Both the position numbers and the translations under genes were made by a program. A model generated the notes under the pieces. The model searched no databases. It saw only the letters and a program-made list of their open reading frames with translations, and was not told where the DNA came from. From contig JBMORE010000185.1 of NCBI GenBank assembly GCA_049322255.1, positions 1-52,659 on the forward strand: a stretch of DNA of 52,659 nucleotides, given 5' to 3'. This DNA comes from Myxococcota bacterium. Its GTDB lineage: Bacteria > Myxococcota > Myxococcia > Myxococcales > Myxococcaceae. This document shows, in pieces, positions 29,644 through 46,950 of the stretch (position 1 is its first letter; each line of letters begins with the position of its first letter).

Positions 29644-29757
29644 ACTCGGCCAACACCATTGCACCCAGAATGCCATCTCCTGTTCGGCTTTCCTCGGGAG
29701 GGTCGGGCGAAAGTCGATTCTGGGTGCAATCGTGTTGGCGCCCGTCGGTTGCCGAGT
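29644..29757. repeat. Long imperfect inverted repeat / hairpin
   Basis: 29649-29671 GCCAACACCATTGCACCCAGAAT matches the reverse complement of 29717-29739 at 22/23; further inner and outer pairings are possible. Confidence 0.75.
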
Positions 29758-29810
29758 GGAGTCGAGGGCCGGCCCCGAATCGATGGAACGGTCCACACGC
29801 CCTCCGAGGT

Positions 29811-30228: not shown

Positions 30229-30243
30229 GTGGAATGCTCCGGT

Positions 30244-30813
30244 CTACTTGTTCAACTTGTTCATGTCGGCGAGCAGGTCGTGCGCGCCGGGACGCAGCGG
30301 GGGCTGCCGCTCGACCAGCTTGTGGGTCTGCCGGGAGATCTTGTCCTGCAGGAGCATGAGACCGTCGAGCACCTGCTCGGGCCGGGGCGGGCACCCGGGG
30401 ATGTACACGTCGACTGGAATGATGCGGTCGATGCCCTGGGACACCGCGTAGTTGTCGTAGAACCCACCCGAGCTGGCGCACACCCCGAACGCCACCACCC
30501 ACTTGGGGTCGCACATCTGCTCGTAGACGCGCTTCAAAATCGGCGCCTGCTTCATGTTGATGGTACCGATGACCATCAAGAGGTCGGCCTGGCGCGGGCT
30601 GAAGCGGGGGAACTCGGCTCCGAAGCGCGCGATGTCGTAGCGGCTGGCGGCGACCGACATGTACTCCATGCCGCAGCAGGCGGTGGCGAAGGGATAGGTG
30701 AACAGCGAGTACTTGCGCGCCCAGCCCAGGCCCTTGGAAACCATCTTCTCGAAGAAGCCCATCGCCTCTTCGCGGCGGGTCGCCAGCACAGGCGTGATGT
30801 CGAGCTCGGCCAT
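30244..30813 (-). CDS. nuoB: NADH-quinone oxidoreductase subunit B (set 1)
   Basis: [35 protein letters not shown]. Confidence 0.95.
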   Translation of the reverse strand: MAELDITPVLATRREEAMGFFEKMVSKGLGWARKYSLFTYPFATACCGMEYMSVAASRYDIARFGAEFPRFSPRQADLLMVIGTINMKQAPILKRVYEQMCDPKWVVAFGVCASSGGFYDNYAVSQGIDRIIPVDVYIPGCPPRPEQVLDGLMLLQDKISRQTHKLVERQPPLRPGAHDLLADMNKLNK

Positions 30814-30816
30814 CGT

Positions 30817-31188
30817 TTAGCTCTCCCAGGTGAGCGCGCCCTTCTTCCACACGTACAAAAGCCCAGCGACCAGGGTGGCGGCGAACACCGCCATCTCAGC
30901 GAAGCCAAACCACGCCAGCTCTTTGAAGCTCACCGCCCACGGGTAGAGAAACACCGCCTCCACGTCGAAGACGATGAAGAGCAGGGCGACCACGTAGAAC
31001 TTCACCGCGAAGCGCTGGCGCGCGCTGCCGATCGTCTCCGAGCCGCACTCGAAGGTCTCCGACTTGGTCGCGCTCGGCCGCGTGGGGCCCAAGATCGAGG
31101 CGATGCCGGTGATGGCCACCGCCAAAAGCCCGGCGACCAGGAGGACGACCGCCAGCGGGATGTAGGGCTCCAGGGGGTTGGGCGCCAT
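30817..31188 (-). CDS. nuoA: NADH-quinone oxidoreductase subunit A (set 1)
   Basis: FECG, KFYVVALLFIVFDVE..FLYPW, WKKGALTW. Confidence 0.94.
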   Translation of the reverse strand: MAPNPLEPYIPLAVVLLVAGLLAVAITGIASILGPTRPSATKSETFECGSETIGSARQRFAVKFYVVALLFIVFDVEAVFLYPWAVSFKELAWFGFAEMAVFAATLVAGLLYVWKKGALTWES

Positions 31189-31287
31189 GGGCGCGGGAAG
31201 ATGACACGGCTTCCAAGTGCTTGACAACAAAGGGCGTACCTGAAATCAACCCCGCGGTTTCGCCCTGTGCGCGTGAGGTGAAAAATC
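31189..31287. promoter_or_regulatory. 99-bp divergent control region shared by the two nuoA genes
   Basis: Head-to-head nuoA genes; contains TTGACA at 31221 and an IHF-like site at 31214-31226. Confidence 0.6.
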
Positions 31288-31737
31288 GTGCAGTTCGACT
31301 TCGCGATGGTGCTGGTCTTCGTGGTCGCGGCGGTTGGCTTTGCCATCGCCAACCTGGTGATCGGCTACTTCCTGCGGCCCCGCTTCCCCAACCCCGAGAA
31401 GGACATCATCTACGAGTGTGGCGAGCGGCCGATCGGCAGCGCGTGGATCAACTTCAACCCGCGCTTCTACATCATCGCCCTGGTGTTCGTGATCTTCGAG
31501 GTGGAGATCGCCCTCACCATTCCGGTGGCGCTGGTCTTCCGCAAGTGGGTGTACGAGCACCAAGGCATGACCGCCCTGTGGGAGATTTTGGCCTTCGTCG
31601 CCATTCTCTTCACCGGCCTGGTGTGGATTTGGGCGCGCCGTGACCTCGAGTGGGTGAAGAAGCTCGAAAACGACCAGGAGCCCGCGCCCGCAACGGCTGG
31701 CGTGTCGTCGCCCCGTTCCTACGTGGAGAACGTCTGA
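31288..31737 (+). CDS. nuoA: Complex I-like subunit A (set 2)
   Basis: [36 protein letters not shown]. Confidence 0.92.
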
Positions 31738-32309
31738 TGGCTACGCTCGACGAGAAGAAGGGCTACGCGCACGATCCAGGAGCCTCCACCGCCCTGGTGA
31801 CCACCCACACCAACGTGCTGGAGAACCTGATCAACTGGTCGCGGCGCTCCTCGATGTTCTACCTGCTCTTCGGGCTGGCCTGCTGCGGCATCGAGCTGAT
31901 GCAGACCGGCGGCCCGCGCGCCGACTTGGACCGCTTCGGCTCGGTGCCCCGCGCCACTCCACGCCAGAGCGACTTGATGATCGTCGCCGGCACGCTCACC
32001 TACAAGATGGCGCTGCGCTGCAAGCTCCTCTACGAGCAGATGGCCGAGCCGAAGTACGTCATCTCCATGGGTTCGTGCGCCAACTGCGGAGGCCTCTTCC
32101 AGCTCGCGTATTCGGTCTGCAAGGGCGTGGACAAAATCATCCCCGTCGATGTCTACGTGCCCGGTTGTCCTCCGCGGCCGGAGGCGCTCACCGAGGGCTT
32201 CTTGCGCATTCAGGAACTCATTCGCCGCGAGACCTTGAAGCAGAAGTACCGCCCCTCGCTCGGGCCTGCCGACACCGGCGCGGGCTACGTCGTTCCGGAG
32301 AGGGTCTAA
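31737..32309 (+). CDS. nuoB: Complex I-like subunit B (set 2)
   Basis: [42 protein letters not shown] overlap with nuoA. Confidence 0.95.
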
Positions 32310-32312
32310 AAG

Positions 32313-32927
32313 ATGCCCGCCCTCACCTCGGAGCAGATTCACGCCAAGCTCGCCGCCAAGTTCGGCGAGGCGGTGGGCACGCTGACGGCGGCGAAGGACC
32401 CGTTCTGCGTCTTCAAGAAGGAGAGGGTGGAGGAGATTTTCCGCTTCCTCCACGACGAGCCTGAGCTGGCCTTCGACTTCCTGCAAGACGAGACGGCCAC
32501 CGACCACCCCAAGGAGGGGCTCGTCCGCGTCGTCTACCACTTCTATAGCTACACCCACCGGCACCTGTTCGTGGGCAAGGTGGAGCTGGACCGCACCTCG
32601 CCCGAGCTGGCCAGCGCCGAGCCGGTGTGGAAGGCAGCCAACTGGATGGAGCGCGAGATCTACGATCTCTACGGAGTGACCTTCACCGGGCACTCCGACC
32701 TGCGGCGCATCTTGCTACCCTACGACTGGGTGGGGCACCCCTTGCGCAAGGACTACTCCGAGGCCGGCGGCTACCGCGACATCTCCAACGTGCGGGACAA
32801 CCCGCTCGATTTGTATTTGAACCTCGACCGGCAAATTCGCGCGGCGAAAGAGGAAGCGCGAGATGCCGCTTCGCCGCCGTCGATTGCCCCCGCTCCTCAG
32901 CCGGCGGCTCCTAAGGCGGAGGGCTGA
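32313..32927 (+). CDS. nuoC: Complex I-like subunit C (set 2)
   Basis: [24 protein letters not shown]...GHPLRKDY. Confidence 0.93.
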
Positions 32928-32929
32928 CC

Positions 32930-34096
32930 ATGGCGCTCGACCAGCTGCTCATCACCAAGAAGTTCGGGCCCGATGCGGACCAGGAGATGATCCTCAACAT
33001 GGGGCCGCAGCACCCCTCGACCCACGGGGTGATCAACTTCATCGTTCAAGCCGACGGCGAGATCATGAAGAAGGCGGTGCCCGAGGTCGGGTACCTGCAC
33101 CGCTCGATCGAGAAGATCGGCGAGACGGTGACCTACTCCGGCTTCATGCCGTACACCGACCGCATCGACTACATCGCGGCGATGTTCGCCAACGAGGGCT
33201 ACGCGCTGGCGGTGGAGAAGCTTTTGGGCATTCGCGCCCCCCCGCGGGCCGAGTACCTACGCGTCATTTCCTGCGAGCTCAACCGCATCGCCAGCCACCT
33301 CATCTCGGTGGGGACGATGGCGATGGACATCGGCGCGGTGACCCCTTTCCCCTACGCCTTGCGCGAGCGGGAGAGCATCAACGACCTCATCGAGGCGCTG
33401 TGCGGCGCGCGGCTCACCTACAACTACCACCGCATCGGCGGAGTGGCCTTCGACATGCCGCCCGACTGGGTGCCTCTGTGCCACAAGTGGCTCGACCACT
33501 TCGACAAGATTCTCGACGAGTGGGACCGGCTGATTTCGGGCAACGAGGTGTTCGTGCAGCGGCTGGCGGGGCTGTCAGTGATTCCCGCCCAGATGGCGAT
33601 CAACTACGGCCTGGTGGGACCTAACCTGCGCGCCTCGGGGGTCGACTTCGACCTACGCAAGGTGCACCCCTACAGCGCCTACCCCGACTTCGAGTTCAAG
33701 ATTCCGGTGGGGAGGGCGTACGGCGGCAAGCACCGCGGCGCGGTGGTGGGTGACTGCTACGACCGGTTCTATTGCCGCGTGCTCGAGTGCCGCGAGTCGG
33801 TGTCCATCGTGCGCCAGGCGCTCAAGAAGCTCCCGGGCGGCGAGTACATGGCCAAGGTGCCGAGGAAGATCAAACCGCCCGCGGGCGAGGCACAGTCCCG
33901 CGTCGAGTCGGCTCGCGGGGAGATGGCGTACTACGTCGTCTCCGACGGCTCGGAGCGCGCATACCGGGTCCGTGCTCGCACTGGTTCCTTCCTGGCGATG
34001 GGGATCATCGAGGAGCTCTCCAAGGGCCTGATGATCGCCGACTTGGTGGCGCTGATTGCCTCCCTCGATGTCGTCGCCCCGGAGATCGACCGCTAA
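32930..34096 (+). CDS. nuoD: Complex I-like subunit D (set 2)
   Basis: [32 protein letters not shown]-terminal EIDR. Confidence 0.94.
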
Positions 34097-34099
34097 GCC

Positions 34100-35371
34100 A
34101 TGCACGAGACGCTCGACACCTTCATCCGCGAAACGCTGCAGCAAGACCCGTCGACTTGGCCTTTGACCCAGGGCGTCTACCTGGTGGCGATGATGGTCAT
34201 CGGTGTGGCGCTCACCACCTTCGGTGCGGTGTTCGCCGGCATCGTCTCCTTCTGGGAGCGTCGCGTCGCCGGCCGCATGCAGTCGCGCATCGGCCCTAAC
34301 CGCGTGGGCCCGGGTGGGTTTCTCCAGTGGGTGGCGGACGCGCTCAAGCTGATTCTCAAGGAGGACTTGATTCCTGCCGAGTCGGACAAGATCCTCTTCC
34401 GCATCGCGCCGTACTTCGTCATCACCGGCTTCATTCTCACCTTCGTGGTGCTGCCGTTCGGTTACCACCTGAGCGCGACCCAGATGAACGTAGGGCTGTT
34501 CTACGTGGTGTCGATCACCTCGCTGGTGGTGGTGGGCATTCTCGTCTCCGGTTGGGCGTCGAACTCAAAGTGGTCGCTCTTCGGAGGCATTCGCGCCGCG
34601 GCGCAGGTGGTGAGCTACGAGATTCCGGCGGGCATGGTGATTCTGGTGCCGATCATCATGGCCGGCTCGCTCAACATGCATGAAATCATTCGCCAGCAGG
34701 GCGGGGCGCCGTGGGACTGGTTCGTCTTCCAGACCCCAATGGGTTACGCGGCGTTCTTCATTCTCTTCGTGGCGTTGCTCGCGGAAGGAAACCGCACTCC
34801 CTTCGATCTTCCAGAGGCGGAGAGCGAGCTCGTCTCCGGCTACAACACAGAGTACTCGGGCATGCGCTTCGGGTATTTCTTCCTCGCCGAGTGGGGGAAC
34901 CTCTGGGTGATGAGCGCCATTCTCACCACGCTCTTCCTCGGTGGGTGGCAGGTGCCGGGCATCTCGGTGGCGCAGCTTACCCAGTGGGAAGCGGGCAACG
35001 CGGTGCCGGTGTGGTTCTACATTGCCTCGGCGATCGTCTTTTGCACCAAGGTGGTGGTGCTGGTGAACGTGGTCATCTGGATTCGGTGGACCTTCCCCCG
35101 CATTCGCGTCGACCAGATGATGTCCTTGTGTTGGAAGTACCTGGTGCCCATCGGCTTGGGGCTGGTGATTTTGGCTGCGTTCACCGAGGTGCTCTCCTTC
35201 CAGCTGTTCGGAGAGGCGGCGAAGGGGCAGGCGCCCTTGGCGAGCGCGCGCGGGGTGCTCCATTTCCTCTTCTTTGTCGTGGGCGGATTGCTCCCGATTG
35301 CGGCCTTCGTCATGAAGACTTTCCAAAACATCCGCCTCACCGGGGAGCGGGTGGACTTGAGCAACTGGTAG
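34100..35371 (+). CDS. nuoH: Complex I-like subunit H (set 2)
   Basis: ERRVAGRMQSRIGPNRVG, KEDLIP, AAQVVSYE, NRTPFDLPEAESELV.GY.TEYSG, RWTFPRIRVDQ. Confidence 0.94.
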   Translation: MHETLDTFIRETLQQDPSTWPLTQGVYLVAMMVIGVALTTFGAVFAGIVSFWERRVAGRMQSRIGPNRVGPGGFLQWVADALKLILKEDLIPAESDKILFRIAPYFVITGFILTFVVLPFGYHLSATQMNVGLFYVVSITSLVVVGILVSGWASNSKWSLFGGIRAAAQVVSYEIPAGMVILVPIIMAGSLNMHEIIRQQGGAPWDWFVFQTPMGYAAFFILFVALLAEGNRTPFDLPEAESELVSGYNTEYSGMRFGYFFLAEWGNLWVMSAILTTLFLGGWQVPGISVAQLTQWEAGNAVPVWFYIASAIVFCTKVVVLVNVVIWIRWTFPRIRVDQMMSLCWKYLVPIGLGLVILAAFTEVLSFQLFGEAAKGQAPLASARGVLHFLFFVVGGLLPIAAFVMKTFQNIRLTGERVDLSNW

Positions 35372-35385
35372 GAGCGATAAGACCG

Positions 35386-36285
35386 ATGCCCGTCGCCAAC
35401 TACGTCGGCAACATCAAGGACACGGTGAAGAGCGCCTGGGAGGGGATGAGCATCACCCTCTCCTACATGTTCCGCCGCCCGATGACCGTGCAGTACGCCG
35501 GCCCGGAGGAGGCGCGGCGCACCGGGGAGCTCATTCAGAACACGATGCCCTCGCGCTACCGCGGCTTCCTCGAAGTGGACATGGAGATTTGCACTGCCTG
35601 CCAGGCTTGCGAGCGGGCCTGTCCGATCAACGTCATCGCCATCGAGATCGAGAAGGACCCGTCCAACCCCAAGCAGCGGGCGATGACCCGCTTCGACATC
35701 GACGAGGCCAAGTGCATGTACTGCGGCCTGTGCGTCGAGCCGTGTCCCACCGGCGCCATTCAGCACACCAAAGAGTTCGAAGGCGCCCAGCGCTTCCTCT
35801 CCAACATGGTGTTGCGCTTCGTCGACCCGGCCAGGCCGGTGGCGCCTTACAAGCCGCCCAAGGGAGCGACGGCGTTTCCTCGGGTGATGCTGGGAGAGAT
35901 TACCCGCGGGCTGGTCAAACGGTGGGACTCGCCGCCGCCGCCGTTCCCGGTGGCCGGCACTGCGGCTCCGGTGGCAAAGAAGGACTCTGGCGACAGCAAG
36001 GCGCTGGCGCTCGAGCTGGCGAAGAAGGCGATCGGCGTCGATACCAAGAAGCTCGCCGCCATCCTCGAAGAAGCCCAGGCCGGCACCGACTGCGGCGCGT
36101 GCACCTACCCCACCTGCCGCGACTACTCGGAGGCGATGGCTTCAGGCAAAGAGAAGCGCCTGCACATGTGCGAGCCCGGCGGCGCCGAGAGCGCCCGCGC
36201 CACCCACATCATCATGGACTCGGTGAAGGCCGGGGCGGTGACGGTGACTCCCGAGGCGGAGAACGCCAAGTACGAGAGCCCGTAG
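35386..36285 (+). CDS. nuoI: Complex I-like subunit I fused to a C-terminal RnfB-type Fe-S domain
   Basis: TVQY, RYRG, CTACQACERACP, CMYCGLCVEPCP; then a Pro/Ala linker and DCGACTYPTC-x17-CEPGG. Confidence 0.9.
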   Translation: MPVANYVGNIKDTVKSAWEGMSITLSYMFRRPMTVQYAGPEEARRTGELIQNTMPSRYRGFLEVDMEICTACQACERACPINVIAIEIEKDPSNPKQRAMTRFDIDEAKCMYCGLCVEPCPTGAIQHTKEFEGAQRFLSNMVLRFVDPARPVAPYKPPKGATAFPRVMLGEITRGLVKRWDSPPPPFPVAGTAAPVAKKDSGDSKALALELAKKAIGVDTKKLAAILEEAQAGTDCGACTYPTCRDYSEAMASGKEKRLHMCEPGGAESARATHIIMDSVKAGAVTVTPEAENAKYESP

Positions 36286-36310
36286 GTCCAGTCTAAAAGT
36301 CGGTTGCCAA

Positions 36311-36410
36311 NNNNNNNNNNNNNNNNNNNNNNNNNNNNNNNNNNNNNNNNNNNNNNNNNNNNNNNNNNNNNNNNNNNNNNNNNNNNNNNNNNNNNNNNNN
36401 NNNNNNNNNN
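36311..36410. other. Scaffold gap (100 N) flanked by an exact 127-bp duplication (assembly artefact)
   Basis: 36184-36310 is identical to 36411-36537. Confidence 0.9.
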
Positions 36411-36519: not shown

Positions 36520-37146
36520 CTAAAAGTCGGTTGCCAAACCCACCATTCCTCCCGAGGGCGTCGGCATCGCCACCGGTCGAATGCTCTTGGCGACATTGCT
36601 CAAGTGACTCTCTTCCAGCCAGTGCGCTGGAAGGATGATCATGACAAGAGGTGCGGCGAGGAGCAGCGGGAAGAAGAAGATCCCCGGGATGAGCAGAGCG
36701 ACGCCGAAGAGAGCGCCCTTGATGGCTGTGCTCCAGTCGCCAGTTCCATTCAGCGCCTGGTGGAGCGCCAAGGCTCCGAACCCCGCCGAGCACGCTATCG
36801 CCAGCGCCGACCCTCCCGCGAACACCAGCATGAATGCGAGCCGTTCGAGCGTGCCGCCACGCCCTGCAACAGACCCCATGAAGCCCAAGGCGAAGTAGAG
36901 CCCGGTGGCGGCACCCGCGGCAAAGGCGGTTGCGCCGAGCGTGGAAACCGTGACCCGAAGGAGCGAATAACGTTCGAGGTTCGCCGCCGACGGGGCCGGA
37001 GCTCGAGCAGCCGGGGCAACTGTCTCGTCAGCGGGCTGGCCCACGTCCGAGGGCAACGGTGGCGGCGAGAGCGGAGCGAGCGGGCCGTTGGCAAACGCCG
37101 CGCCGGAAAGAAGCAGGGTGGTGGCAAGAATTGGAACGGTTCGCAT
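36520..37146 (-). CDS. Hypothetical membrane protein (signal peptide, Pro-rich linker, Gly/Ala-rich TMs), antisense within the nuo set 2 cluster
   Basis: MRTVPILATTLLLSGAAFA signal; several hydrophobic segments; C-terminal PVAMPTPSGGMVGLATDF. Confidence 0.6.
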   Translation of the reverse strand: MRTVPILATTLLLSGAAFANGPLAPLSPPPLPSDVGQPADETVAPAARAPAPSAANLERYSLLRVTVSTLGATAFAAGAATGLYFALGFMGSVAGRGGTLERLAFMLVFAGGSALAIACSAGFGALALHQALNGTGDWSTAIKGALFGVALLIPGIFFFPLLLAAPLVMIILPAHWLEESHLSNVAKSIRPVAMPTPSGGMVGLATDF

Positions 37147-37310
37147 GCTGGGCAATCAGGCAACAGGCTTGCCCCGTACTTTACGACGCGGATTCAAGGC
37201 CTTGTACGGGGAATGCCGCTCCATGTGCAGCGGCCTTCTTGGCGTCTTGTGCGAGCGCTTGCTCATCGAAGGGATTAGAAGGCCCTCGGAAAGTCGCTCA
37301 CAAATCGCTT

Positions 37311-37323: not shown

Positions 37324-37357
37324 TTCCTCGCGCTTGCGGCGAAAAGCGCACCTCCTG

Positions 37358-38020
37358 ATGGCTGACGACAACGTGAAGAAGCCAGAGCGATCGACGCACT
37401 ATGCGGAGATCCTTGGCGGGCTGCTCTTGATGGCCTTCTTGGTGGCGGTGGTGTTCTGGGGCGCAGCGAAGATGCTCCCGGGCATGGCGCCAGTGGCGGC
37501 GAAGGGCGCCGAGCTGGCCAAGCCCACCGACTTGCTCTTCTTCCTCATCGCCGGAGTGACGATGGTGTCGGCCGCCGGCGTGGCCTTTTCGCGCAACATC
37601 ATCTACTCAGCGCTCGCGCTCCTGGGCGCGCTCTTGGGCACCGGGGCGCTCTACATTTTCTTGAACGCCGACTACGTGGCCATCACCCAGCTGCTCATCT
37701 ACGTCGGCGGCGTGCTGGTGCTCATTCTCTTCGCGGTGATGCTCACCAATCGCATCGATGAAAAGAAGCAGTCGAACCCGATGAGCAACGTCTTCCCTGG
37801 TCTGGGGCTCTTGGGCGCGCTGCTGCTCCTCTTTGGATTTATCGCGGCGAAGGCGCCCTGGAAGCTGGGCGACGCAAAGCTCTCTGTCAGCTCGACGGTG
37901 GACAAGATCGGCGACCTCTTCTTGGGGCACTACCTGCTCGCCTTCGAGGTCATCTCGCTGCTCTTGCTCGCCACGCTCATCGGCGCGGTGGTCATCGCCC
38001 GCAAGGAAATCAAGGAGTAG
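37358..38020 (+). CDS. nuoJ: Complex I-like subunit J with an extra N-terminal hydrophobic helix
   Basis: RNIIYSAL, QLLIYVGGVLVLILFAVML, YLLAFEVISLLLL..LIGAVVIARK. Confidence 0.92.
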   Translation: MADDNVKKPERSTHYAEILGGLLLMAFLVAVVFWGAAKMLPGMAPVAAKGAELAKPTDLLFFLIAGVTMVSAAGVAFSRNIIYSALALLGALLGTGALYIFLNADYVAITQLLIYVGGVLVLILFAVMLTNRIDEKKQSNPMSNVFPGLGLLGALLLLFGFIAAKAPWKLGDAKLSVSSTVDKIGDLFLGHYLLAFEVISLLLLATLIGAVVIARKEIKE

Positions 38021-38022
38021 CC

Positions 38023-38337
38023 ATGGTGACCATCGGGCTGCCTCACTTCCTCATCGTCGGCGCAGTGCTCTTCGCCTTCGGCACCTACACCGTCGTCACT
38101 CGCTCCAACGCGGTGGGCATCTTGATGGGCGTCGAGCTCATCTTGAACGCCGCCAATCTGAACTTCGTGGCCTTCAACCGCTTCAACCCCACGCCGCATT
38201 TGAGCGGTCAGGTCTTCAGCCTATTCGTCATCGTGCTGGCGGCGGCGGAGGCGGCGGTGGCGCTGGCCATCGTGCTCGCCATCTACATGAACCAGAAGAG
38301 CATCGACGTCTCCGAGGCAGACACCTTGCGGGAATAG
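38023..38337 (+). CDS. nuoK: Complex I-like subunit K
   Basis: LMGVELILNAANLNFV and LAAAEAAVALAI; both conserved Glu present. Confidence 0.95.
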   Translation: MVTIGLPHFLIVGAVLFAFGTYTVVTRSNAVGILMGVELILNAANLNFVAFNRFNPTPHLSGQVFSLFVIVLAAAEAAVALAIVLAIYMNQKSIDVSEADTLRE

Positions 38338-38340
38338 CGA

Positions 38341-40872
38341 ATGAACATCTTCTTTGCGCTCAATGAATTGGTGCTGGCGTCGGGAGCCCACGCCCCTGCC
38401 GCCGCTCCACACTCACCACAGGAAGTCGTCCACGTCGGGTACCTGTGGCTCATTCCGCTCTTGCCCCTGCTCGGCTCGGCGGTGAACGCCTTCGTCGGCC
38501 ACAAGCTGCAGAAGCTCTACGGGAAGAAAATCACCTCGCACATCGCCATCGGCGCGATGGTGGGTGCGTTCGCGGTGGCAGTGGTGGCCTTCGCGCAGAT
38601 GCTCTCGCTGCCTGCGGAGCAGCGCTACCTCTCCGACTTCGTCTTCAACATGTTTACCGCGGGCGACGTGCAGGCCGACCTGGCGTTCGCCCTCGACCCG
38701 CTGTCGATGATGATGACGCTGATCATCACCTTCATCGGTACGCTCATTCACATCTACTCCACCGGGTACATGGCGGACGAGCCGGCCTACTGGCGGTTCT
38801 TCTGCTACCTGAACCTCTTCGTCTTCTCGATGCTCCTGTTGGTCATGGGAGACAACTTCGTCCTCATGTTCTTCGGCTGGGAGGGCGTGGGGCTGTGCAG
38901 CTACCTCTTGATTGGGTTCTGGTACGAGGACAAGGAGAAGGCGCAGGCGGGCGTCAAAGCGTTCGTCACCAACCGCTTCGGCGACTTCGGCTTCGTGCTC
39001 GGGCTGTTCCTTCTCTTCTGGGCGCTGGGCGGCAGCTGGACCAAGGAGGACAACGTTCTGCCTGCGCGCGAGGCGGTATGGGCGCGTAGCGACCCCGCTT
39101 ACGTGCCGCAGGTCGAGAGCGGAACCGTCTATCGGAAGGACCTCGCGTACGCGCCGAGGCAGCCTCCTTCTACCTATGCCGAGGTGGAGGCGCAGAAGGG
39201 CGAGGGCGGCAAGTGGCAGGCAGGCCCGGCGGCGGCGGTACGGGCCGGTCTCAAGGTCGGCCCCACGCTCAACTTCCGGGAGCTACGCGATCAGGTCGTC
39301 ATCGAGGCGACCGGAGTGAAGAAGCGGCTCCTCGGGATGGAGTTCCTCGGCATTCCGCTCCTGGCGCTGGTGGGCATTCTCTTCTTCGTCGGCGCCACCT
39401 CGAAGAGCGCGCAGATTCCGCTGTACGTGTGGCTGCCGGACGCCATGGCCGGCCCCACGCCGGTGTCGGCGCTCATCCACGCGGCCACCATGGTCACCGC
39501 CGGCGTCTACATGGTGGCGCGGCTCAACTTCATCTTCTCCCTGTCCCCGATCGCGATGACGGTGATTGCCGTCACCGGAGCGGCCACCGCGATGTTCGCC
39601 GCCTCCATCGGGTTTTTGCAGCACGACATCAAGAAGGTGCTGGCGTACTCCACGGTGTCGCAGCTGGGCTTCATGTTCATCGGCGTCGGCGTGGGCGCCT
39701 ATTGGGCCGGCGTCTACCACTTGCTCACCCACGCCTTCTTCAAGGCCTGTCTCTTCTTGGGCTCGGGCTCGGTGATCCTCGGCTGCCACCACGAGCAGGA
39801 CATGCGGAAGATGGGCGGCCTCAAGAAGTACATGCCGCTCACCGAGAAGACCTACCTCTACGCCTGCATCGCCATCGCCGGCTTCCCCATCGCCAACGGC
39901 TTCTTCTCCAAGGATGAAATCCTCTGGAAGGCGTTCGACTCGGGGAGCAACCTGCTCGATCCCACCATCGGCAAGGTCATTTGGTTCGTCGGCTGGCTCA
40001 CCGCGCTGGGCACCAGCTTCTACATGTGGCGCAGCTACTACATGACCTTCACCGGCGAGTACCGGGGAGGGGTGGGGCACGGACACGCGCACGCGGATGC
40101 GCATGCTCCTTCGGCTACGCCAGTGTTGGCGACGCACTCGGTGGGGGCGGCGCACGCAGCGACCTTCGACCACGACGTGGGTCACGGCGGCGATTCACAC
40201 GGGCACGGGCACCACGGTGGTACTCCTCACGAGTCGCCCCGGGCGATGACCTGGGTGCTCGCGACCTTGGCCATTGGCTGTTTCCTCACCATCGCCTTGG
40301 GCTTCTGGGCGCCGTTGGGGATTACCCCCGCGCTGGAGCACTGGCTCGAGCCGGTACTTTCGCCTTCGGCCGCGCTGGTCCACGAGCGCAGCCTCAAGCA
40401 GGGGCACGCCCTGGAGTACCTGCTCATTGGTCTTTCAGTGGCGGTGGCGTTCGGCGGCTGGCTCATCGCCCGCGCGCTCTACAAAGACGCCAAGAGCACC
40501 GTGCCGGCAACGCTGGCGGCCAAATTCCCGCGGGTGCACCGAGTCGTCTACAACAAGTATTACGTCGACGAGCTGTACCAGAAGACGGTGCTCGCGGGGG
40601 CGATGGTCATCGCCAAGGCCTCCAGCGCGTTTGACCGCATCGTCATCGACGGTGCGGTGGGTGCGGTCGCCGCCGTCGGCAGGTTCGTGTGCAACATCGA
40701 GGGCGCGATCGACAAGTACCTGGTCGATGGTGCGGTGAACTTCGTCGCCGACACCGCCCTGCGGTCTGGCAAGGCGATTCGCCGGCTTCAGACCGGGCGT
40801 ATTCAGCACTACCTCTACGCGGCGCTCGCCGGCGCACTGATTGTCGCCGGCATCAACTTCCTCATCCGGTAG
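38341..40872 (+). CDS. nuoL: Complex I-like subunit L (843 aa; loop insertion, His-rich loop, extended lateral helix)
   Basis: GWEGVG, NRFGD, KSAQIPLYVWLPDAMAGPTPVSALIHAATMV, DIKKVLAYST, FFSKDEI, YYVDELY...LQTG. Confidence 0.95.
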   Translation: MNIFFALNELVLASGAHAPAAAPHSPQEVVHVGYLWLIPLLPLLGSAVNAFVGHKLQKLYGKKITSHIAIGAMVGAFAVAVVAFAQMLSLPAEQRYLSDFVFNMFTAGDVQADLAFALDPLSMMMTLIITFIGTLIHIYSTGYMADEPAYWRFFCYLNLFVFSMLLLVMGDNFVLMFFGWEGVGLCSYLLIGFWYEDKEKAQAGVKAFVTNRFGDFGFVLGLFLLFWALGGSWTKEDNVLPAREAVWARSDPAYVPQVESGTVYRKDLAYAPRQPPSTYAEVEAQKGEGGKWQAGPAAAVRAGLKVGPTLNFRELRDQVVIEATGVKKRLLGMEFLGIPLLALVGILFFVGATSKSAQIPLYVWLPDAMAGPTPVSALIHAATMVTAGVYMVARLNFIFSLSPIAMTVIAVTGAATAMFAASIGFLQHDIKKVLAYSTVSQLGFMFIGVGVGAYWAGVYHLLTHAFFKACLFLGSGSVILGCHHEQDMRKMGGLKKYMPLTEKTYLYACIAIAGFPIANGFFSKDEILWKAFDSGSNLLDPTIGKVIWFVGWLTALGTSFYMWRSYYMTFTGEYRGGVGHGHAHADAHAPSATPVLATHSVGAAHAATFDHDVGHGGDSHGHGHHGGTPHESPRAMTWVLATLAIGCFLTIALGFWAPLGITPALEHWLEPVLSPSAALVHERSLKQGHALEYLLIGLSVAVAFGGWLIARALYKDAKSTVPATLAAKFPRVHRVVYNKYYVDELYQKTVLAGAMVIAKASSAFDRIVIDGAVGAVAAVGRFVCNIEGAIDKYLVDGAVNFVADTALRSGKAIRRLQTGRIQHYLYAALAGALIVAGINFLIR

Positions 40873-40878
40873 ATCTCC

Positions 40879-42570
40879 ATGACCAACCACCTGCTCAGCC
40901 TCATCATCTTCCTTCCGCTCGCCGGGGCGGCGCTCATCGCGCTCACGATGGCCCTGCCGATGGCCAAAGAGGTGCGAGACAACGCCTCGCGGTGGCTCTC
41001 CCTCCTCGTCTCCGCCCTGGCGATGCTCGGCGGCCTCTACCTCTGGACGAGCTACACCGGCGGCGGAGTGCAGTACGTCGAGCGCTTCACGTGGATTCGC
41101 TCGCTGGGCATCGAGTACTACGTGGGGGTCGACGGCATCAGCGTGTCGATGGTCATCCTCTCCACCCTCGTCTCCTTCATCGCCACCATCGCCTCCATGC
41201 CCTGGTGGAAGGGCGCCAAGGAGCACGACGACCCGCACCACCCGCACTTCTCCCAGGTGAAGGTGCCCGGCTACATGGCGATGCTGCTCATCCTCCAGAC
41301 GGGCATGAGCGGGACCTTCGCCGCGCTGGACATGTTCCTCTTCTTCGTCTTCTGGGAGGTCATGCTCCTGCCGATGTACTTCCTCATCGGCATCTGGGGC
41401 GGGCCGCGCAAGGAGTATGCGGCGATCAAGTTCTTCCTCTACACCCTGGCCGGCTCGGTGCTGCTGCTCCTCGCGATCATCGCGCTCCACTACAAGAGCG
41501 GGGATTTGGGCCTGCTCGCCAAGCTGCGCGAGTCCAACCCGATGGCGTTCGCCGCGCTTCTCGACGGGAAGGCGTTGGTTCAGGGGCCAGACGGCGCGCT
41601 CGGCTACCTCCTGGGAGACGGCGCCTTCGTCCCCCGTACTTTCGACATGGTGGTTTTGGCCAAGCTGGGTCAAAGCAGCTTGTTCGACTTGGTGGGCCCG
41701 TTCCTCTTCGGCGTCACCTTCGCCAAGTTGATGTGGGTGTTCATGTTCATCGCCTTCGCGGTGAAGGTGCCGATGGTGCCCTTCCACACCTGGCTCCCCG
41801 ATGCCCACGTCGAGGCGCCCACGCCCATCTCGGTCATCCTCGCCGGGGTGCTCCTCAAGATGGGCATCTACGGCATGCTCCGTTTCAACTGGGCGATGCT
41901 CCCTGGGGCGACGTCGGCCTTCGCCACCTTCGTGGCGGTCTTCGGGGTCATCAACGTCGTCTACGCGGCGATGGTTTGCCTGGCGCAGAAGGACTTGAAG
42001 AAGCTGATCGCCTACTCCTCGGTGTCGCACATGGGCTTTTCGCTCCTCGGCATGGCGGCGATGACCGAGGCGGGCATCAGCGGAGCGGTGCTCAACCTCT
42101 TCACCCACGGCCTCATCAGCCCGATGCTCTTCCTCATCGTGGGCGTCATCTACGACCGCGCCCACCACCGGGAGATCGAGGGCTTCGGCGGGATCGCCAA
42201 GGTGGTGCCCGAGTACACCGCGGTGATGGGCCTGGCCTTCTTCGCCTCCCTGGGCCTGCCGGGCCTGGCGGGCTTCGTGAGCGAGTTCATGGTGCTCAAC
42301 GGCTCGTTCATGAACCTGCCGTGGCACACCGCGCTCGCGGCGCTCTCGGTCATCATCACCGCGGCCTACTACCTGTGGACGGTGCAGCGCATGTTCCTGG
42401 GCAAGCTCAACGAGAAGTACGCCGAGCTTCCCGACTTGAACTGGCGCGAGCGCTTCACCCTCTACCCGCTGGCGGCGCTCACCTTGGTGTTCGGGTTCTA
42501 TCCGAACGTGATGCTCAACCTCATCAACTCGGACTTGTACAAGCTGCTTCGGGTGGTGAAGGGGGCGTAA
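40879..42570 (+). CDS. nuoM: Complex I-like subunit M
   Basis: FWEVMLLPMY, AVKVPMVPFHTWLPDAHVEAPT, LLKMGIYG, LIAYSSVSHMG, GFVSEF. Confidence 0.95.
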   Translation: MTNHLLSLIIFLPLAGAALIALTMALPMAKEVRDNASRWLSLLVSALAMLGGLYLWTSYTGGGVQYVERFTWIRSLGIEYYVGVDGISVSMVILSTLVSFIATIASMPWWKGAKEHDDPHHPHFSQVKVPGYMAMLLILQTGMSGTFAALDMFLFFVFWEVMLLPMYFLIGIWGGPRKEYAAIKFFLYTLAGSVLLLLAIIALHYKSGDLGLLAKLRESNPMAFAALLDGKALVQGPDGALGYLLGDGAFVPRTFDMVVLAKLGQSSLFDLVGPFLFGVTFAKLMWVFMFIAFAVKVPMVPFHTWLPDAHVEAPTPISVILAGVLLKMGIYGMLRFNWAMLPGATSAFATFVAVFGVINVVYAAMVCLAQKDLKKLIAYSSVSHMGFSLLGMAAMTEAGISGAVLNLFTHGLISPMLFLIVGVIYDRAHHREIEGFGGIAKVVPEYTAVMGLAFFASLGLPGLAGFVSEFMVLNGSFMNLPWHTALAALSVIITAAYYLWTVQRMFLGKLNEKYAELPDLNWRERFTLYPLAALTLVFGFYPNVMLNLINSDLYKLLRVVKGA

Positions 42571-42578
42571 GTCACATT

Positions 42579-42614
42579 CCCTCACCCTTGCCCTCTCCCT
42601 TCGGGAGAGGGGAG
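42579..42614 (+). repeat. REP-like palindromic element, copy 2, between nuoM and nuoN
   Basis: CCCTCACCCTTGCCCTCTCCC-TTC-GGGAGAGGGGAG; 9-bp perfect GC-rich stem. Confidence 0.8.
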
Positions 42615-42620
42615 ATTGAC

Positions 42621-44204
42621 ATGAACCACGTCCTCAACAACGTCGAGAGCCTGGCGTTCTTCGCCCCGGAGATCGTCCTCACCGCAGGGGCGATGGCCAT
42701 CTTCGTGCTCGACCTAGGCCTCAAGAATGCGCCCAAGCGGGTCGGCATTCTCACCGGGGCGAGCCTGGTCGTTCTCGCCCTTGCCACCCTAGCCACCTAC
42801 TGGTCGACCCAGCTGACCTACGTGGTCGACGGCCAGGCGTACACCGCCATCCAGCAGCCGATGGGTTTGTTCAACGGGCTCATCGTGCTCGACCCCTGGG
42901 CGGTGTTCTTCAAGTACCTCTCGTGGGCGGTCACCGCCTTGGCGATCGTCATCGCCGCACCCTCGTTGGAAATCTCCTCCGAGCGCATGGGCGAGTACTG
43001 CGCGATGCTCTTGGCCATCGCCGTCGGCCTGTCGCTGATGGCCAGCTCCACCGACATGCTGATGATGGTCATCGGCGTCGAGCTGGTGTCGATGGTCAGC
43101 TACGCACTGGCGGGCTTTCGTAAGCACCACCGCCGTTCCTCCGAGGCCGCGCTCAAGTACGTGGTCTACGGCGGCGTGGCGAGCGGAATGATGCTCTTCG
43201 GCATGAGCTGGCTCTACGGGCTCATCGGCACCACCAACGTGGTGGGCGCCGCCGGCCGCATCAACGAGTACGGCGAGAAGGTCTATTTGCAGCTGCTCCA
43301 GACCGGCTCGGAGGGCGCCGGACGCGTGGCGCTCATCGTGGCCATCGTGCTCATCCTCTCGGGCATCGGGTACAAGATTGCCGCGGTCCCCTGGCACATG
43401 TGGTGCCCCGACGTTTACGAAGGAGCGCCCACCCCGTTCACCGCCTTCCTCTCGGTGGGTCCCAAGGCCGCAGGCTTCGCCTTGGCGGTGCGGGTGCTCT
43501 ACGGCGCGATGAGCGAGAGCGGCGGACAGGACTTGGCCACTGTGTTGCGCGACGTTCCCTGGCCGGAAATCATCGGGGTGCTCGCCGCGGTGACGATGAC
43601 CGTGGGCAACTTCGCCGCGCTCAACCAGACCAATGTGAAGCGCATGCTGGCTTACAGCTCGATCGCTCACGCCGGTTACCTTTTGATGGGTCTGGCGGCG
43701 GCCTCGGCGACCGGATCAGAGTCGATCGCCATCTACCTGGTGGTCTACCTGTTCATGAACCTGGGGGCCTTCCTGGTGGTGGGGACGGTGGGGCGGCTAG
43801 CGGGGTCAGAGTCGATCTTCGAGTACCGAGGCCTCTCCGCCCGTGCGCCCTTCGCCGCGGTGGCCTTTGCCATCTTCCTCTTCTCGCTCACCGGCTTGCC
43901 GCCGCTGGCGGGCTTCGTGGGCAAGTTCCACCTGTTCAAGGCGCTCATCGATCGGGGAGAAGCCTGGCACGTCACCTTGGCCCTCATCGGTGTCCTCAAC
44001 AGCGCGGTGTCGCTCTACTATTACGCGCGCATCGTCAAGGCGATGTTCCTCGACAAGCCAGCCAACACCGCCCGCATTCCCGTGCCGAAGTCGTACAACT
44101 TCCTGCTCGGGTTTTTGGTGGCGGCGGTGATTGGCCTCGGGGTCTACTTCGAGGGGCTGCGCACGCTCGCTGGGGCCTCGGTGCACCTGTTCGGTCATTC
44201 TTAA
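42621..44204 (+). CDS. nuoN: Complex I-like subunit N
   Basis: GVELVS, SEAALKY, YKIAAVPWHMWCPDVYEGAPTP, GPKAAG, KRMLAYSSIAHAGY, GFVGKF. Confidence 0.95.
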   Translation: MNHVLNNVESLAFFAPEIVLTAGAMAIFVLDLGLKNAPKRVGILTGASLVVLALATLATYWSTQLTYVVDGQAYTAIQQPMGLFNGLIVLDPWAVFFKYLSWAVTALAIVIAAPSLEISSERMGEYCAMLLAIAVGLSLMASSTDMLMMVIGVELVSMVSYALAGFRKHHRRSSEAALKYVVYGGVASGMMLFGMSWLYGLIGTTNVVGAAGRINEYGEKVYLQLLQTGSEGAGRVALIVAIVLILSGIGYKIAAVPWHMWCPDVYEGAPTPFTAFLSVGPKAAGFALAVRVLYGAMSESGGQDLATVLRDVPWPEIIGVLAAVTMTVGNFAALNQTNVKRMLAYSSIAHAGYLLMGLAAASATGSESIAIYLVVYLFMNLGAFLVVGTVGRLAGSESIFEYRGLSARAPFAAVAFAIFLFSLTGLPPLAGFVGKFHLFKALIDRGEAWHVTLALIGVLNSAVSLYYYARIVKAMFLDKPANTARIPVPKSYNFLLGFLVAAVIGLGVYFEGLRTLAGASVHLFGHS

Positions 44205-45016
44205 GACGCGCGCGCCTGCAGCTGCTCGAGATTTTCGGGAGGCATCGAGGTGCTGCCCAGCTTGCGCAGCGGAGCCACCTTTTCTCCGTGAAAGTCGCTT
44301 CCCGCGGTGGGAACCAGATCGAGCTCTTGGGCCAGGGTCAAGAACTTCTGCCGCACGCTGGGGCTGTGATCGGAGTGGTACACCTCGAGCCCGGCCAAAC
44401 CGACGGCGGCGAGGCTTGCAAGCTCGGAGCGCTCCAGCTTCGAAGTCCCCGGGTGGGCCACCGTGGCCGCTCCCTTCGCGCCGCGGATGAGGGCGATCGC
44501 CTCTTGTCCTGAGAGTCGGTACCGGTCGACGTATGCCCGCCGGCCGTCTCCTAAGTAGCGGTCGAAGGCCTCCTTGGTGTCGGCGCAGAAACCTCGCTCC
44601 ACCATCACCCGAGCGAGATGGGGGCGGCCCAGGTGGGCGTCGCCGGCAAGGGTGCGCACCTCTTCCATCGTCACCGGAAAACCCAGGGAGCAAACCTTCT
44701 CCACCATCCGTTCCATGCGTTTTTCCCGTTCGGTACGCAAGAAGGCGGAGAAGCCACCCAAGCGCGCGTCGCCGGGTTCGATGAAGTGCCCCAGGATGTG
44801 CACCTCGCGGTCGTTGATGAAGGCGGAGAGCTCGATGCCATTCACCAGACGCAGACCCCTCGCTGCAGCCGCGCTTTGGCACGCCCCGAGCCCCGCCACG
44901 GTGTCGTGATCGGTCACCGCGAGCACCGTCACCCCCGCCTGGGCCGCGAGCGCCACGAGCTCATGGGGAGCGTACTGTCCGTCGCTCGCCGTGGTGTGGG
45001 AGTGGAGATCGATCAT
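44201..45016 (-). CDS. PHP-domain phosphoesterase (YciV/TrpH-like)
   Basis: IDLHSHTTASDG, VTDHDT, GIELS, VHILG, GRPHLA, AHP, GSDFHG. Confidence 0.93.
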   Translation of the reverse strand: MIDLHSHTTASDGQYAPHELVALAAQAGVTVLAVTDHDTVAGLGACQSAAAARGLRLVNGIELSAFINDREVHILGHFIEPGDARLGGFSAFLRTEREKRMERMVEKVCSLGFPVTMEEVRTLAGDAHLGRPHLARVMVERGFCADTKEAFDRYLGDGRRAYVDRYRLSGQEAIALIRGAKGAATVAHPGTSKLERSELASLAAVGLAGLEVYHSDHSPSVRQKFLTLAQELDLVPTAGSDFHGEKVAPLRKLGSTSMPPENLEQLQARAS

Positions 45017-45024
45017 CGGGCGTC

Positions 45025-46950
45025 TTAGAGGCTCACCAGCACCTTGAGGTCCGCCGGGGGCGAGGGCTGCCCCACGTTGTCGTAGACGGTGAGCGTCACC
45101 TGGTAGAGCCCGGTGACCAAGGGGTCGAGGATGAGCTTCACCTTGTCGTTGGCTTGCTTCACCCCGTCCTGCTCCAGGGAAGCATTGGCGGCGTTGGTGG
45201 GCTTTTTGACCAAGCGGAACTGGTACTGGCTTCCGGTGGGCATGGTGGTGCCGGGCGGGTCGTAGCTGTTCATGCCCGAGATGATCAGCTCCTTGGCGGC
45301 AACGAGGCTGGAGAGGCGAACGCTCATGGTGCCTCTCTCGGGTTGGGAGCAGCTGACATCGGTAGGGTAGCAGCCTTCGACCACCGCCACCGGGAGCTGA
45401 TCGAGGGGCGAGTCGGAGTACAGCCGCACCACTTTGTACGGCGTCGGTCCGTAGTCGGGGTCGTTGGTGTCGATGCGCAAAACCCCAGTCTGGGTACCGC
45501 CCGACACCGGCTTTTTGTACTGGACGGTGGCGATCACCGCGGTGTTGGCCGCCACCTGGGTGCCCGCGGGGATGAGCGGTTCGACCACCGAGAAGAAAGG
45601 GTTGGGGTCGACGAACACCCGGTTCACCATGAGCGTGCCGCAGCCCTGGCCGTTCTTGATCTGCACCTGCTTTCTGGTCAGCTCGGTGGTGGCGTTCTGG
45701 AAATCGAGCTGCTCGGCCGGGTCGGTGGAGAGGCAAGGCTTGAGCCCACCGGCCAAAGAGAGCACCGCCTTCCCAGCGGGGCGGCCGGCGGAGCTCGCGG
45801 TCACGGTGAGCAGCTCGGTGGTGTAGAGCGGCGCGTCATTGTGCGAAACGAGGAGGAAGGCGGAGCCGCCCGGGACGATGGTTTGCCCCTGCACATTCTG
45901 GGTGATGGTGAAGCGGGTCTGGCCGGGGTTGCCGAAGGCCACCGAGTCGATGGAGATGTCGGCGTTGCCGCCGTTCTTGATTTCGAAGCGCGCCTGGTTG
46001 GGCTGCTTGGTGGGGTTGCCGCACAGGTCGAGCGGCTGGGTGAAGTCACAGAAGGTCGGCTGGGAGTACACCGAGGGCTCGGCGGCGCTTCCCCCCAGCT
46101 GGATGAGGAATTCCGGATTGGCCGGGTCGTTGGTGCGTACCTTGAGTAAGGCGTACCGCTGAGTGATGCCCGAGCCGTCGTTCTCGGGGGCAAAGCGAAT
46201 CTTAAGGACACTCTCGGCGCGCCCGTCGGCGGTGGTGAGAAGCAGCGGCGTCGCCGACGTCGGCGGCACGGCAGGCTCGTCGAGGAAGTACGCCAGGTTG
46301 GTTCCGCCGCCAGCGTTGATGCGCTCGAGCTCCAGCGCGGAAATTTTCAGCGCCGGGCAGCCGGTGTTCTCGAGCTTGATGAGCAGGGTCGAGCTCTCCC
46401 CGTAGAAGGTGTCGGGGAAGACTTGAAGACAAGTGCCACCGGTGAAGCAGGTGGAGTAGGTATCGGGCAGGTCCTTGTCCTGGAGCGAGACTTCGAGGGT
46501 CGGCTGCGCAGGCAAGTTGCGCCCCGTGCCCACCAGCGCCACCGTGACCAGGTCGGTGGTTTCATCGCCGTCGTCGATGGTCATCTCCGCCTTGGAGTCG
46601 CCCCGCTTGGTGGGCGTGAAGCGCACTGGAAATTCGACCTCCGAGGTCGCATCCACCGTCTGCGGGGTTTGACCTTCCACCAGCGAGAAGGCGTCCATCT
46701 CGGGCCCGGCGAAGGTGATGTGCACCTCGCCGGGCGCCTTACCGAGGTTCTTGAGCAAGAGCTTCTTTTCGTCGGGGAAGACGTCTTGCACCGGGTTGCC
46801 GCCCTCGTCCTGCACCGGGCAAGCCTCGAAGGACATCGCCTTGGGGTTGGGATCGAAATCGGGCCTGGCGCCGCCGGTGTTGGGGGGCTCGCAGCGGCAG
46901 CCTGCGAGCGCCAGGGTAACGGAAGCAACGAGTAGCCGGGAGGTACGCAC
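45025..46950 (-). CDS. Multi-Ig-domain lipoprotein (choice-of-anchor-D/ASH-like repeats, PKD-like C-terminus)
   Basis: Lipobox LALAGC; repeated (L/I)xNxG..L.I strands, VRF.P and RTNDP motifs; C-terminal NSYDP...GLYQVTLTVYDN. Confidence 0.75.
   Translation of the reverse strand: MRTSRLLVASVTLALAGCRCEPPNTGGARPDFDPNPKAMSFEACPVQDEGGNPVQDVFPDEKKLLLKNLGKAPGEVHITFAGPEMDAFSLVEGQTPQTVDATSEVEFPVRFTPTKRGDSKAEMTIDDGDETTDLVTVALVGTGRNLPAQPTLEVSLQDKDLPDTYSTCFTGGTCLQVFPDTFYGESSTLLIKLENTGCPALKISALELERINAGGGTNLAYFLDEPAVPPTSATPLLLTTADGRAESVLKIRFAPENDGSGITQRYALLKVRTNDPANPEFLIQLGGSAAEPSVYSQPTFCDFTQPLDLCGNPTKQPNQARFEIKNGGNADISIDSVAFGNPGQTRFTITQNVQGQTIVPGGSAFLLVSHNDAPLYTTELLTVTASSAGRPAGKAVLSLAGGLKPCLSTDPAEQLDFQNATTELTRKQVQIKNGQGCGTLMVNRVFVDPNPFFSVVEPLIPAGTQVAANTAVIATVQYKKPVSGGTQTGVLRIDTNDPDYGPTPYKVVRLYSDSPLDQLPVAVVEGCYPTDVSCSQPERGTMSVRLSSLVAAKELIISGMNSYDPPGTTMPTGSQYQFRLVKKPTNAANASLEQDGVKQANDKVKLILDPLVTGLYQVTLTVYDNVGQPSPPADLKVLVSL

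What the first reader, a model, noticed from the sequence alone, without database searches (positions are those of the whole stretch)
40567..40800. NuoL lateral helix carries the 26-residue '2M' duplication, but the operon has only one nuoM
Seen: between YYVDELY and LQTG the motif D-x4-DGAV occurs twice (FDRIVIDGAVG at 40633; IDKYLVDGAVN at 40711), exactly 78 nt or 26 codons apart. The DELY..QTG span is 77 aa; I count about 48-53 aa in ordinary NuoL sequences recalled from memory. Established: this helix clamps NuoL-M-N, and ~26-aa insertions mark 2M complex I variants with a fourth antiporter-like subunit (Chadwick et al. 2018, ISME J). Inference: the arm is long enough for four antiporter subunits but only L, M and N are encoded. 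Either the single NuoM is used twice, a NuoM is borrowed from another locus, a second nuoM was recently lost, or tandem nuoM copies were collapsed in assembly. A cryptic 2M complex would be missed by surveys that count nuoM genes.
Basis: partly seen in the sequence, partly recalled or inferred. Interest (0 to 1): 0.9.

Follow-up and report, generated by a model that had tools for sequence, protein, structure and literature searches.

The report
One nuoM gene, two NuoM docks
The side helix that straps together the proton-pump subunits of this bacterium's respiratory complex I carries two conserved copies of its NuoM-binding motif although only one nuoM gene lies beside it, so the enzyme likely builds in the same NuoM twice and would then be a hidden four-subunit pump, in a gene layout found in many bacterial phyla.

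Summary
NuoL (38341-40872) has a 26-residue tandem duplication in its lateral helix (span 77 aa; 51-53 in ordinary NuoL), beside a single nuoM. It is not peculiar to this genome: of 151 long-helix loci with a readable L-to-N interval, 132 have one nuoM and 19 have two (a biased sample, several phyla). Assembly collapse and recent loss are refuted; borrowing fails as a general explanation. All four repeat aspartates are invariant in 120 of 120 one-nuoM sequences although the repeats are otherwise about 40% identical; the first corresponds to the Paracoccus aspartate that binds NuoM. Both helix anchors keep ordinary spacing, and the length changes in whole modules. In true 2M operons repeat 2 has diverged along with the second NuoM. 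Best reading (0.55, inferred): one NuoM is used twice (L-M-M-N). Rivals: looped-out module or other partner (0.2); helix shifted onto NuoN (0.18). No direct stoichiometry evidence exists. The mismatch is already noted in print for Manganitrophaceae (PMC9040806), and this scan found it before in at least 8 other genomes.

The parts
31288..35371 (+). nuoA, nuoB, nuoC, nuoD, nuoH of the 11-subunit operon (no nuoE/F/G)
   Evidence: ORFs; names by inspection and by homology to the second set in tblastn; same order in relatives
35383..36285 (+). nuoI with a fused C-terminal extra Fe-S domain (PF04060, RnfB-like)
37334..38337 (+). nuoJ and nuoK
38341..40872 (+). nuoL, 843 aa, long-lateral-helix type
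   Evidence: TIGR01974 628.9 bits, cutoff 407.5; model matches solved NuoL, Z 53.5, rmsd 4.6, 596 aligned
40555..40578 (+). N-terminal anchor of the lateral helix, KYYVDELY (K739-Y746)
   Evidence: same consensus in long one-nuoM, short and 2M NuoL
40597..40674 (+). helix module 1 (res 753-778) with D765-x4-D770-G-x-V773
   Evidence: D765 and D770 invariant in 120 of 120 one-nuoM span-77 sequences
40675..40752 (+). helix module 2 (res 779-804) with D791-x4-D796-G-x-V799-N800
   Evidence: D791, D796, V799 invariant in 120 of 120
40780..40866 (+). C-terminal anchor RxxQTGxxQxY and predicted TM16 (res 821-842)
   Evidence: anchor consensus shared with short and 2M NuoL; helix 821-842 in the model
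40879..42570 (+). single nuoM, 563 aa, with E160, K184, K296, H303, D308, K327, Y379, E469 intact
   Evidence: TIGR01972 546.3 bits; residues
42621..44204 (+). nuoN, 527 aa
   Evidence: TIGR01770 380.9 bits

Best explanation
This operon encodes an 11-subunit complex I without the NADH-input module, whose NuoL lateral helix has two conserved NuoM-docking modules, and the membrane arm likely assembles as NuoL-NuoM-NuoM-NuoN from the single nuoM gene. The helix would act as a ruler: its start is anchored on NuoL, its end and TM16 on NuoN, and each 26-residue module would clamp one NuoM through its Asp. The extra subunit would allow one more proton per electron pair if the donor is of low potential, such as a ferredoxin. 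Shown: duplication, gene content, conservation. Inferred: docking of both modules, stoichiometry, donor and extra pumping.
For: [quoted passage not shown] (2) D648 of Paracoccus NuoL contacts NuoM H239 and Y315 and is needed for stability (PMC9802314, passages). D648 aligns to the first Asp of either repeat. Both repeat Asp pairs are invariant in 120 of 120 span-77 one-nuoM sequences, in 50 of 50 not picked by the DNA-pattern scan, and in 49 of 49 representatives under 55% identity, while repeat identity between proteins is 39% and 44%. The matching NuoM residues H303 and Y379 are 100% and 99% conserved in 131 single NuoMs (mapping to Paracoccus by motif, inferred). (3) Spacing from the N-anchor to repeat 1 (27) and from repeat 2 to QTG (23) equals that of the single module in short NuoL (27-28 and 23 in the 4 checked), and both anchors are unchanged. 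One NuoM cannot sit at both places. (4) In 16 span-77 two-nuoM operons repeat 2 keeps an acidic first residue (13 E, 3 D) but has lost the second Asp (0 of 16), and their second NuoM has lost the D308 equivalent (19 of 19); repeat 1 versus repeat 2 identity is 13% against 32% in one-nuoM operons. (5) No measured span fell between 54 and 75 (189 of 202 loci gave an automatic span). Short forms are nested in long clades: L162 and L180 lost one module; L160 and L161 lost 28 aa including the N-anchor and keep a degenerate repeat 1. (6) G318 and G323 hold only one L/M/N set genome-wide.
Against: No direct evidence of stoichiometry. Start-region strength, codon bias and 5' folding of nuoM relative to nuoL and nuoN do not differ significantly between 109 long and 16 short operons (p 0.27, 0.10, 0.10; rough start calls), and the window's nuoM has the weakest Shine-Dalgarno score of the three. 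NuoM is not slower relative to NuoL (ratio 1.07 long, 1.11 short). The single-chain model is helical from 739 to 792 but breaks with pLDDT under 50 at 791-797, inside repeat 2. NuoN keeps the homologous Lys/His/Asp/Tyr residues, so repeat 2 could dock there. Five relatives carry a 65-aa two-helix hydrophobic insert between the repeats, so the helix tolerates interruption. The second NuoM of the true 2M operons sampled is one distinct clade without the TM7 lysine, so a fourth subunit need not be an ordinary pump. The 2M contrast rests on few, related lineages.
Confidence: 0.55

Rival explanations
1. The arm is ordinary L-M-N and the extra module loops out or folds back. It is conserved because it binds something else (a second complex, an electron donor, a lipid site) or because the two modules take turns on the one NuoM site.
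For: Low-confidence break in repeat 2 in the single-chain model. Two-helix insert tolerated between the repeats in 5 loci. In MBS the lateral helix forms a dimer contact (PMC7684303, passages). No translation signal for doubled NuoM.
Against: Both modules keep the same NuoM-type motif without exception, both flanking segments stay amphipathic, and the length is almost fixed (152 of 164 long spans are exactly 77). A free loop would be expected to drift. No extra conserved gene was seen between L, M and N.
Confidence: 0.2
2. The arm is L-M-N, repeat 1 binds NuoM, repeat 2 binds the homologous site of NuoN, and QTG plus TM16 are anchored one subunit further in, near NuoA/J/K/H: a longer brace with no extra pump.
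For: NuoN keeps K179, H259, D264 and Y345, the homologues of the NuoM site (homology of these positions in PMC3046159, passages). It needs no unusual stoichiometry.
Against: The RxxQTGxxQxY anchor is the same in long, short and 2M NuoL, and no polar NuoN residue is specific to long operons. Loss of exactly one module in nested lineages restores ordinary spacing.
Confidence: 0.18
3. The fourth slot is filled by a NuoM or MrpD borrowed from another locus (here the C31 NuoM).
For: The window's genome has a second nuoM. G491 carries a stand-alone extra nuoM. G484 and G464 have Mrp-like genes.
Against: G318 and G323 have no other antiporter-like gene (completeness not given). The C31 NuoM belongs to its own short-helix L-M-N set.
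Confidence: 0.04
4. A second nuoM was lost recently and the helix is a relic, or tandem nuoM copies were collapsed in assembly.
For: The length is the 2M length. Yu et al. raised 'evolutionary transition' for Manganitrophaceae.
Against: 132 loci from several phyla have one nuoM, including one-contig genome G053. In run X1 one piece bridges nuoL-nuoM at depth 37.4 and one bridges nuoM-nuoN at 32, with flanks at 32-33 and no joint back from the end to the start of nuoM among those listed. The repeats are under strict selection.
Confidence: 0.03

Closest known systems
2M complex I (Chadwick, Hemp, Fischer, Orphan 2018, ISME J 12:2668). Paper not held; seen only through citing passages in PMC9040806 and PMC7419157
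   Same: A 26-residue insertion at the same place in the NuoL lateral helix; span 77 aa in the two-nuoM operons fetched here.
   Different: One nuoM gene, not two. Both repeats keep the motif, whereas repeat 2 has diverged in 2M. The NuoM keeps its TM7 lysine, which the second NuoM of the sampled 2M operons lacks. The NuoL is not in either sampled 2M clade.
Complex_I_1 and Complex_I_2 of Ca. Manganitrophaceae (Yu et al. 2022, PMC9040806; section 10 read, Fig. S2 not seen)
   Same: Helix insertion in NuoL of clusters described as canonical in gene content and order.
   Different: There it is a remark on one family whose genomes also carry a 2M-type cluster. Here it is shown across several phyla, in genomes with no second nuoM, with residue-level conservation of both modules.
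11-subunit complex I without NuoEFG (PMC3144371; search listing and abstract start only)
   Same: Gene set A-B-C-D-H-I-J-K-L-M-N; 130 of 131 long one-nuoM loci showed no E, F or G upstream of L within the fetched stretch.
   Different: Lengthened lateral helix; here also a NuoI with a fused extra Fe-S domain.
Canonical complex I (E. coli 3rko, Thermus 4he8, Paracoccus 8qby, cyanobacterial 6hum)
   Same: NuoL fold and anchors; the module Asp corresponds to Paracoccus D648.
   Different: The solved chains aligned have one module; no chain covering both repeats was found among 177635 PDB sequences.

Membership tests
2M complex I | About 26-aa insertion in the NuoL lateral helix | tested here: met
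   77 versus 51-53 aa
2M complex I | Second nuoM gene in the cluster | tested here: not met
   nuoL-nuoM-nuoN are contiguous; depth and junctions single-copy
2M complex I | Four antiporter-like subunits in the assembled arm | not testable with these tools
   needs a structure or quantitative proteomics
2M complex I | NuoL belongs to a two-nuoM clade | tested here: not met
   window NuoL lies in starred all-one-nuoM sets (8, 31, 35 rows); the 19 two-nuoM rows form 2 other clades (FastTree only, Chloroflexota 2M not sampled)
11-subunit complex I | nuoABCDHIJKLMN without nuoEFG in the cluster | tested here: met
   E and F lie on C31 and G on the other strand, with the second set
11-subunit complex I | Electron donor other than NADH (ferredoxin or a separate module) | not testable with these tools
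   only a hint: extra Fe-S domain on NuoI
NuoL / NuoM / NuoN | Curated family score | tested here: met
   TIGR01974, TIGR01972, TIGR01770 all above cutoff
NuoM | Central-axis residues GluTM5, LysTM7, LysTM8, GluTM12 | tested here: met
   E160, K296, K327, E469; labels recalled, matched by motif to PMC3046159 and PMC9802314 numbering

The most novel reading that the evidence does not exclude
A large, multi-phylum class of complex I, including the only complex I of green sulfur bacteria such as Chlorobium ferrooxidans, is a four-subunit proton pump built from three genes: the NuoL helix is a ruler that counts two copies of one NuoM, and gain or loss of one 26-residue module switches pump number without any change in gene content.
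Probability: 0.5. Interest if true: 0.82.

Novelty: new variant of a known kind. Interest (0 to 1): 0.55.

Why it matters
Four-subunit complex I is counted today by nuoM genes. If one gene can fill two slots, such enzymes are far commoner than counted, and energy budgets of Chlorobi, Ignavibacteria, Acidobacteriota, Myxococcota and others would need revising. It would also ease an ordering problem in the evolution of 2M enzymes, since a longer helix would be useful before a second gene exists. Cultured organisms with a single complex I of this type make the question testable with one cryo-EM map. If the arm is 1:1:1, the helix-length rule seen in all solved relatives has an exception, which is of more modest interest. 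The locus itself is an ordinary member of the lineage.

Tried and rejected
Complex prediction of the helix (88 aa) with two NuoM copies (456 aa each) from relative L120 returned 'no answer' (score 0.00, controls not folded); it is no evidence either way. The window's own NuoM was too long for two copies. Sequencing runs: no RNA holder listed; X2 holds only short related pieces. X1 may be the source sample and gives contig depth only. Translation-signal comparison was not significant. Relative-rate test was inconclusive: M/L the same, M/N lower in long operons (0.73 versus 0.82, subsample range 0.69-0.78), but the pairs are not independent. Within-protein repeat similarity barely exceeds cross-protein similarity (BLOSUM 30.4 versus 28.2), so concerted evolution is not claimed. 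I first took the loss of the TM7 lysine in the second NuoM as two convergent events; the tree puts all 19 in one starred set, so it is one. The fold search confirms NuoL but barely tests residues beyond 798. Chadwick 2018 and Zhu and Vik 2015 are not held; PMC13073174 had none of the terms sought. Ten literature searches listed no paper proposing double use of one NuoM; most subscription journals are outside this library. The supplements of PMC9040806 were listed, not read, and its Fig. S2 could bear on gene counts in those clusters. Chloroflexota 2M operons were not sampled.

Full report
Observation. NuoL is the ORF 38341-40872 (843 aa), followed by nuoM 40879-42570 and nuoN 42621-44204 (families above cutoff). 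D743ELY..QTG819 spans 77 aa. The two motifs start at 40633 and 40711. The best internal match is at lag 26, reached by 4 of 2000 shuffles. Solved short-helix chains have one module that aligns to either repeat, and none found covers both; 6hum_F spans 51. The duplication and the net insertion are real.

Genome context. The window's genome (99.6% complete) is in the same family as G019, whose locus is identical to one titled Myxococcaceae bacterium. It holds two complex I sets. The first is the plus-strand operon A-B-C-D-H-I-J-K-L-M-N with no E, F or G. The second is split: A, B, C, D, G, H, I on the minus strand of this window (21784-31230) and E, F, J, K, L, M, N on contig C31, with a short 53-aa helix. 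tblastn finds no other antiporter-like subunit.

Assembly. In run X1, which may be the source sample, one piece covers 40198-41397 at depth 37.4 and another 41368-46000 at depth 32; upstream pieces are at 32.1 and 32.9, and no listed joint returns from the end of nuoM to its start. nuoM is single-copy.

Distribution. I annotated 200 fetched loci plus the two own sets; 198 remained after removing 4 duplicates. Classes: long helix with one nuoM 132; long with two nuoM 19; long with nuoN outside the stretch or displaced 15; short 25; two repeats but shortened 2; span 142 5. Ten rows were classed by hand, and five one-nuoM rows have a broken or unmatched nuoM and were classed by L-to-N distance. 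This is no census. Titles include Myxococcota, Binatia, Acidobacteriota, Planctomycetota, Melioribacter, Chlorobium ferrooxidans, Prosthecochloris and Nitrospirota; every one of those 80 loci that reached nuoN had room for one nuoM, apart from displaced L124.

Borrowing. Fifteen genomes were searched whole with NuoM. G318 (holding L129, C. ferrooxidans) and G323 show only one L/M/N set. G484 and G464 show one nuoM plus weak Mrp-like hits. Most others have a second full operon. One, G491, has a stand-alone extra nuoM.

What the repeats bind. In Paracoccus, D648 of the helix contacts NuoM H239 and Y315, and D648N destabilises the complex without changing pumping (PMC9802314, passages). D648 aligns to the first Asp of either repeat. 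Among 120 span-77 one-nuoM sequences all four Asp are invariant, the Val three residues after the second Asp is 99-100% and the next Asn 88-98%, while the repeats are only 39% and 44% identical between proteins. This holds in the 50 not picked by the DNA pattern and in 49 representatives under 55% identity; the profile search still favours such sequences. The corresponding NuoM residues are kept. In 16 span-77 two-nuoM operons repeat 1 mostly keeps the motif (first Asp 16 of 16, second 13 of 16), but repeat 2 has E or D first and never the second Asp, and the second NuoM lacks the D308 equivalent and the TM7 lysine. So the repeat tracks its partner there, and two equal repeats suggest two equal partners. 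That step is inference, and the second NuoMs form one clade.

Geometry. Both anchors, KYYVDE and RxxQTGxxQxY, have the same consensus in 128 long one-nuoM, 23 short and 19 two-nuoM sequences, and NuoN shows no long-specific polar residue. Repeat 1 sits at the ordinary distance from the first anchor and repeat 2 at the ordinary distance from the second. In solved relatives helix length matches the subunit number (PMC8165549, PMC7684303; passages). A FastTree tree of 183 NuoL cores with the helix removed (15 of 198 rows left out as broken or partial) needs 9 long/short changes. Short L162 and L180 and shortened L160 and L161 lie inside a starred set otherwise made of long forms, and the genome's own short NuoL lies inside a larger long group. 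The tree has no outgroup root, so direction and order are not established.

Results against. Translation signals give no support. The M/L rate ratio is unchanged. The single-chain model has a continuous helix 739-792 and a low-confidence break at 791-797. Five relatives have two hydrophobic segments inserted between the repeats. NuoN retains a homologous site, so a shifted register is not excluded. The single module of short NuoL is less strictly conserved than either long repeat (second Asp 16 of 23 in a rough end-anchored register), which no model here fully explains.

Mechanism. Most likely (0.55) the helix is a ruler for L-M-M-N with one NuoM used twice. The operon lacks the NADH module and its NuoI carries an extra Fe-S domain (also in 8 of 103 other long loci), which would fit a low-potential donor able to drive another proton; donor and pumping ratio are untested. 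Rivals are a looped-out module with another partner (0.2), a shifted brace (0.18), borrowing (0.04), and relic or collapse (0.03).

Known and new. It fails the gene-count test for 2M complex I and is not filed as a member, though it may work like one. Yu et al. 2022 already noted such insertions in clusters of canonical gene content and left them open (PMC9040806, section 10). Chadwick 2018 could not be read and may discuss such cases. This scan had logged the same mismatch in at least 8 other genomes; those notes are unchecked, and the distribution claim was tested here independently. What this analysis adds is the residue-level contrast between one-nuoM and two-nuoM repeats and the whole-module length changes.

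Noticed in passing
window 35383-36285: NuoI of the long-helix operon has a fused C-terminal Fe-S domain (PF04060, RnfB-like). The same motif occurs in 8 of 103 other long one-nuoM loci (L032, L040-L044, L069, L093). Possible electron-entry site.
   Followed up: partly
window 21784-31230 (minus strand) and G000:C31:12782-21087: A second complex I is split over two contigs: A, B, C, D, G, H, I here, divergent from the long-helix operon, and E, F, J, K, L, M, N on C31. The back-to-back nuoA arrangement recurs in relatives (L033, L039, L056, L057).
   Followed up: partly
L133-L145, L165-L167, L222, L226, L227: In all 19 two-nuoM operons the second NuoM lacks the TM7 lysine and has WxPxGH for WLPDAH; these form one clade. 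The first NuoM lacks the His of that motif. The fourth subunit of these 2M enzymes may not be an ordinary pump.
   Followed up: partly
L146-L150 (NuoL C-terminus): NuoL with a 65-aa insert of two hydrophobic, membrane-length segments between the two repeats; one nuoM.
   Followed up: partly
L160, L161: NuoL that lost 28 aa including the KYYVDE anchor and keeps a degenerate repeat 1, returning to about the short total length.
   Followed up: partly
L231:7108-8739: Stand-alone intact nuoM in G491, away from its two operons, among unrelated ORFs; 1 of 15 genomes searched whole.
   Followed up: partly
window 36520-37155 (minus strand): 211-aa hydrophobic ORF inside the operon between nuoI and nuoJ, with no Pfam or NCBIfam match; a run of N lies just upstream near 36300-36410.
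   Followed up: no
L177-L179, L182: Short-helix operons with an unassigned 1.7-2.3 kb stretch between nuoM and nuoN.
   Followed up: no
window 39030-39330 and 40060-40230; 41490-41700: NuoL carries a long soluble insert and a His-rich loop, and NuoM a loop insert of about 60 aa, relative to solved homologues.
   Followed up: no
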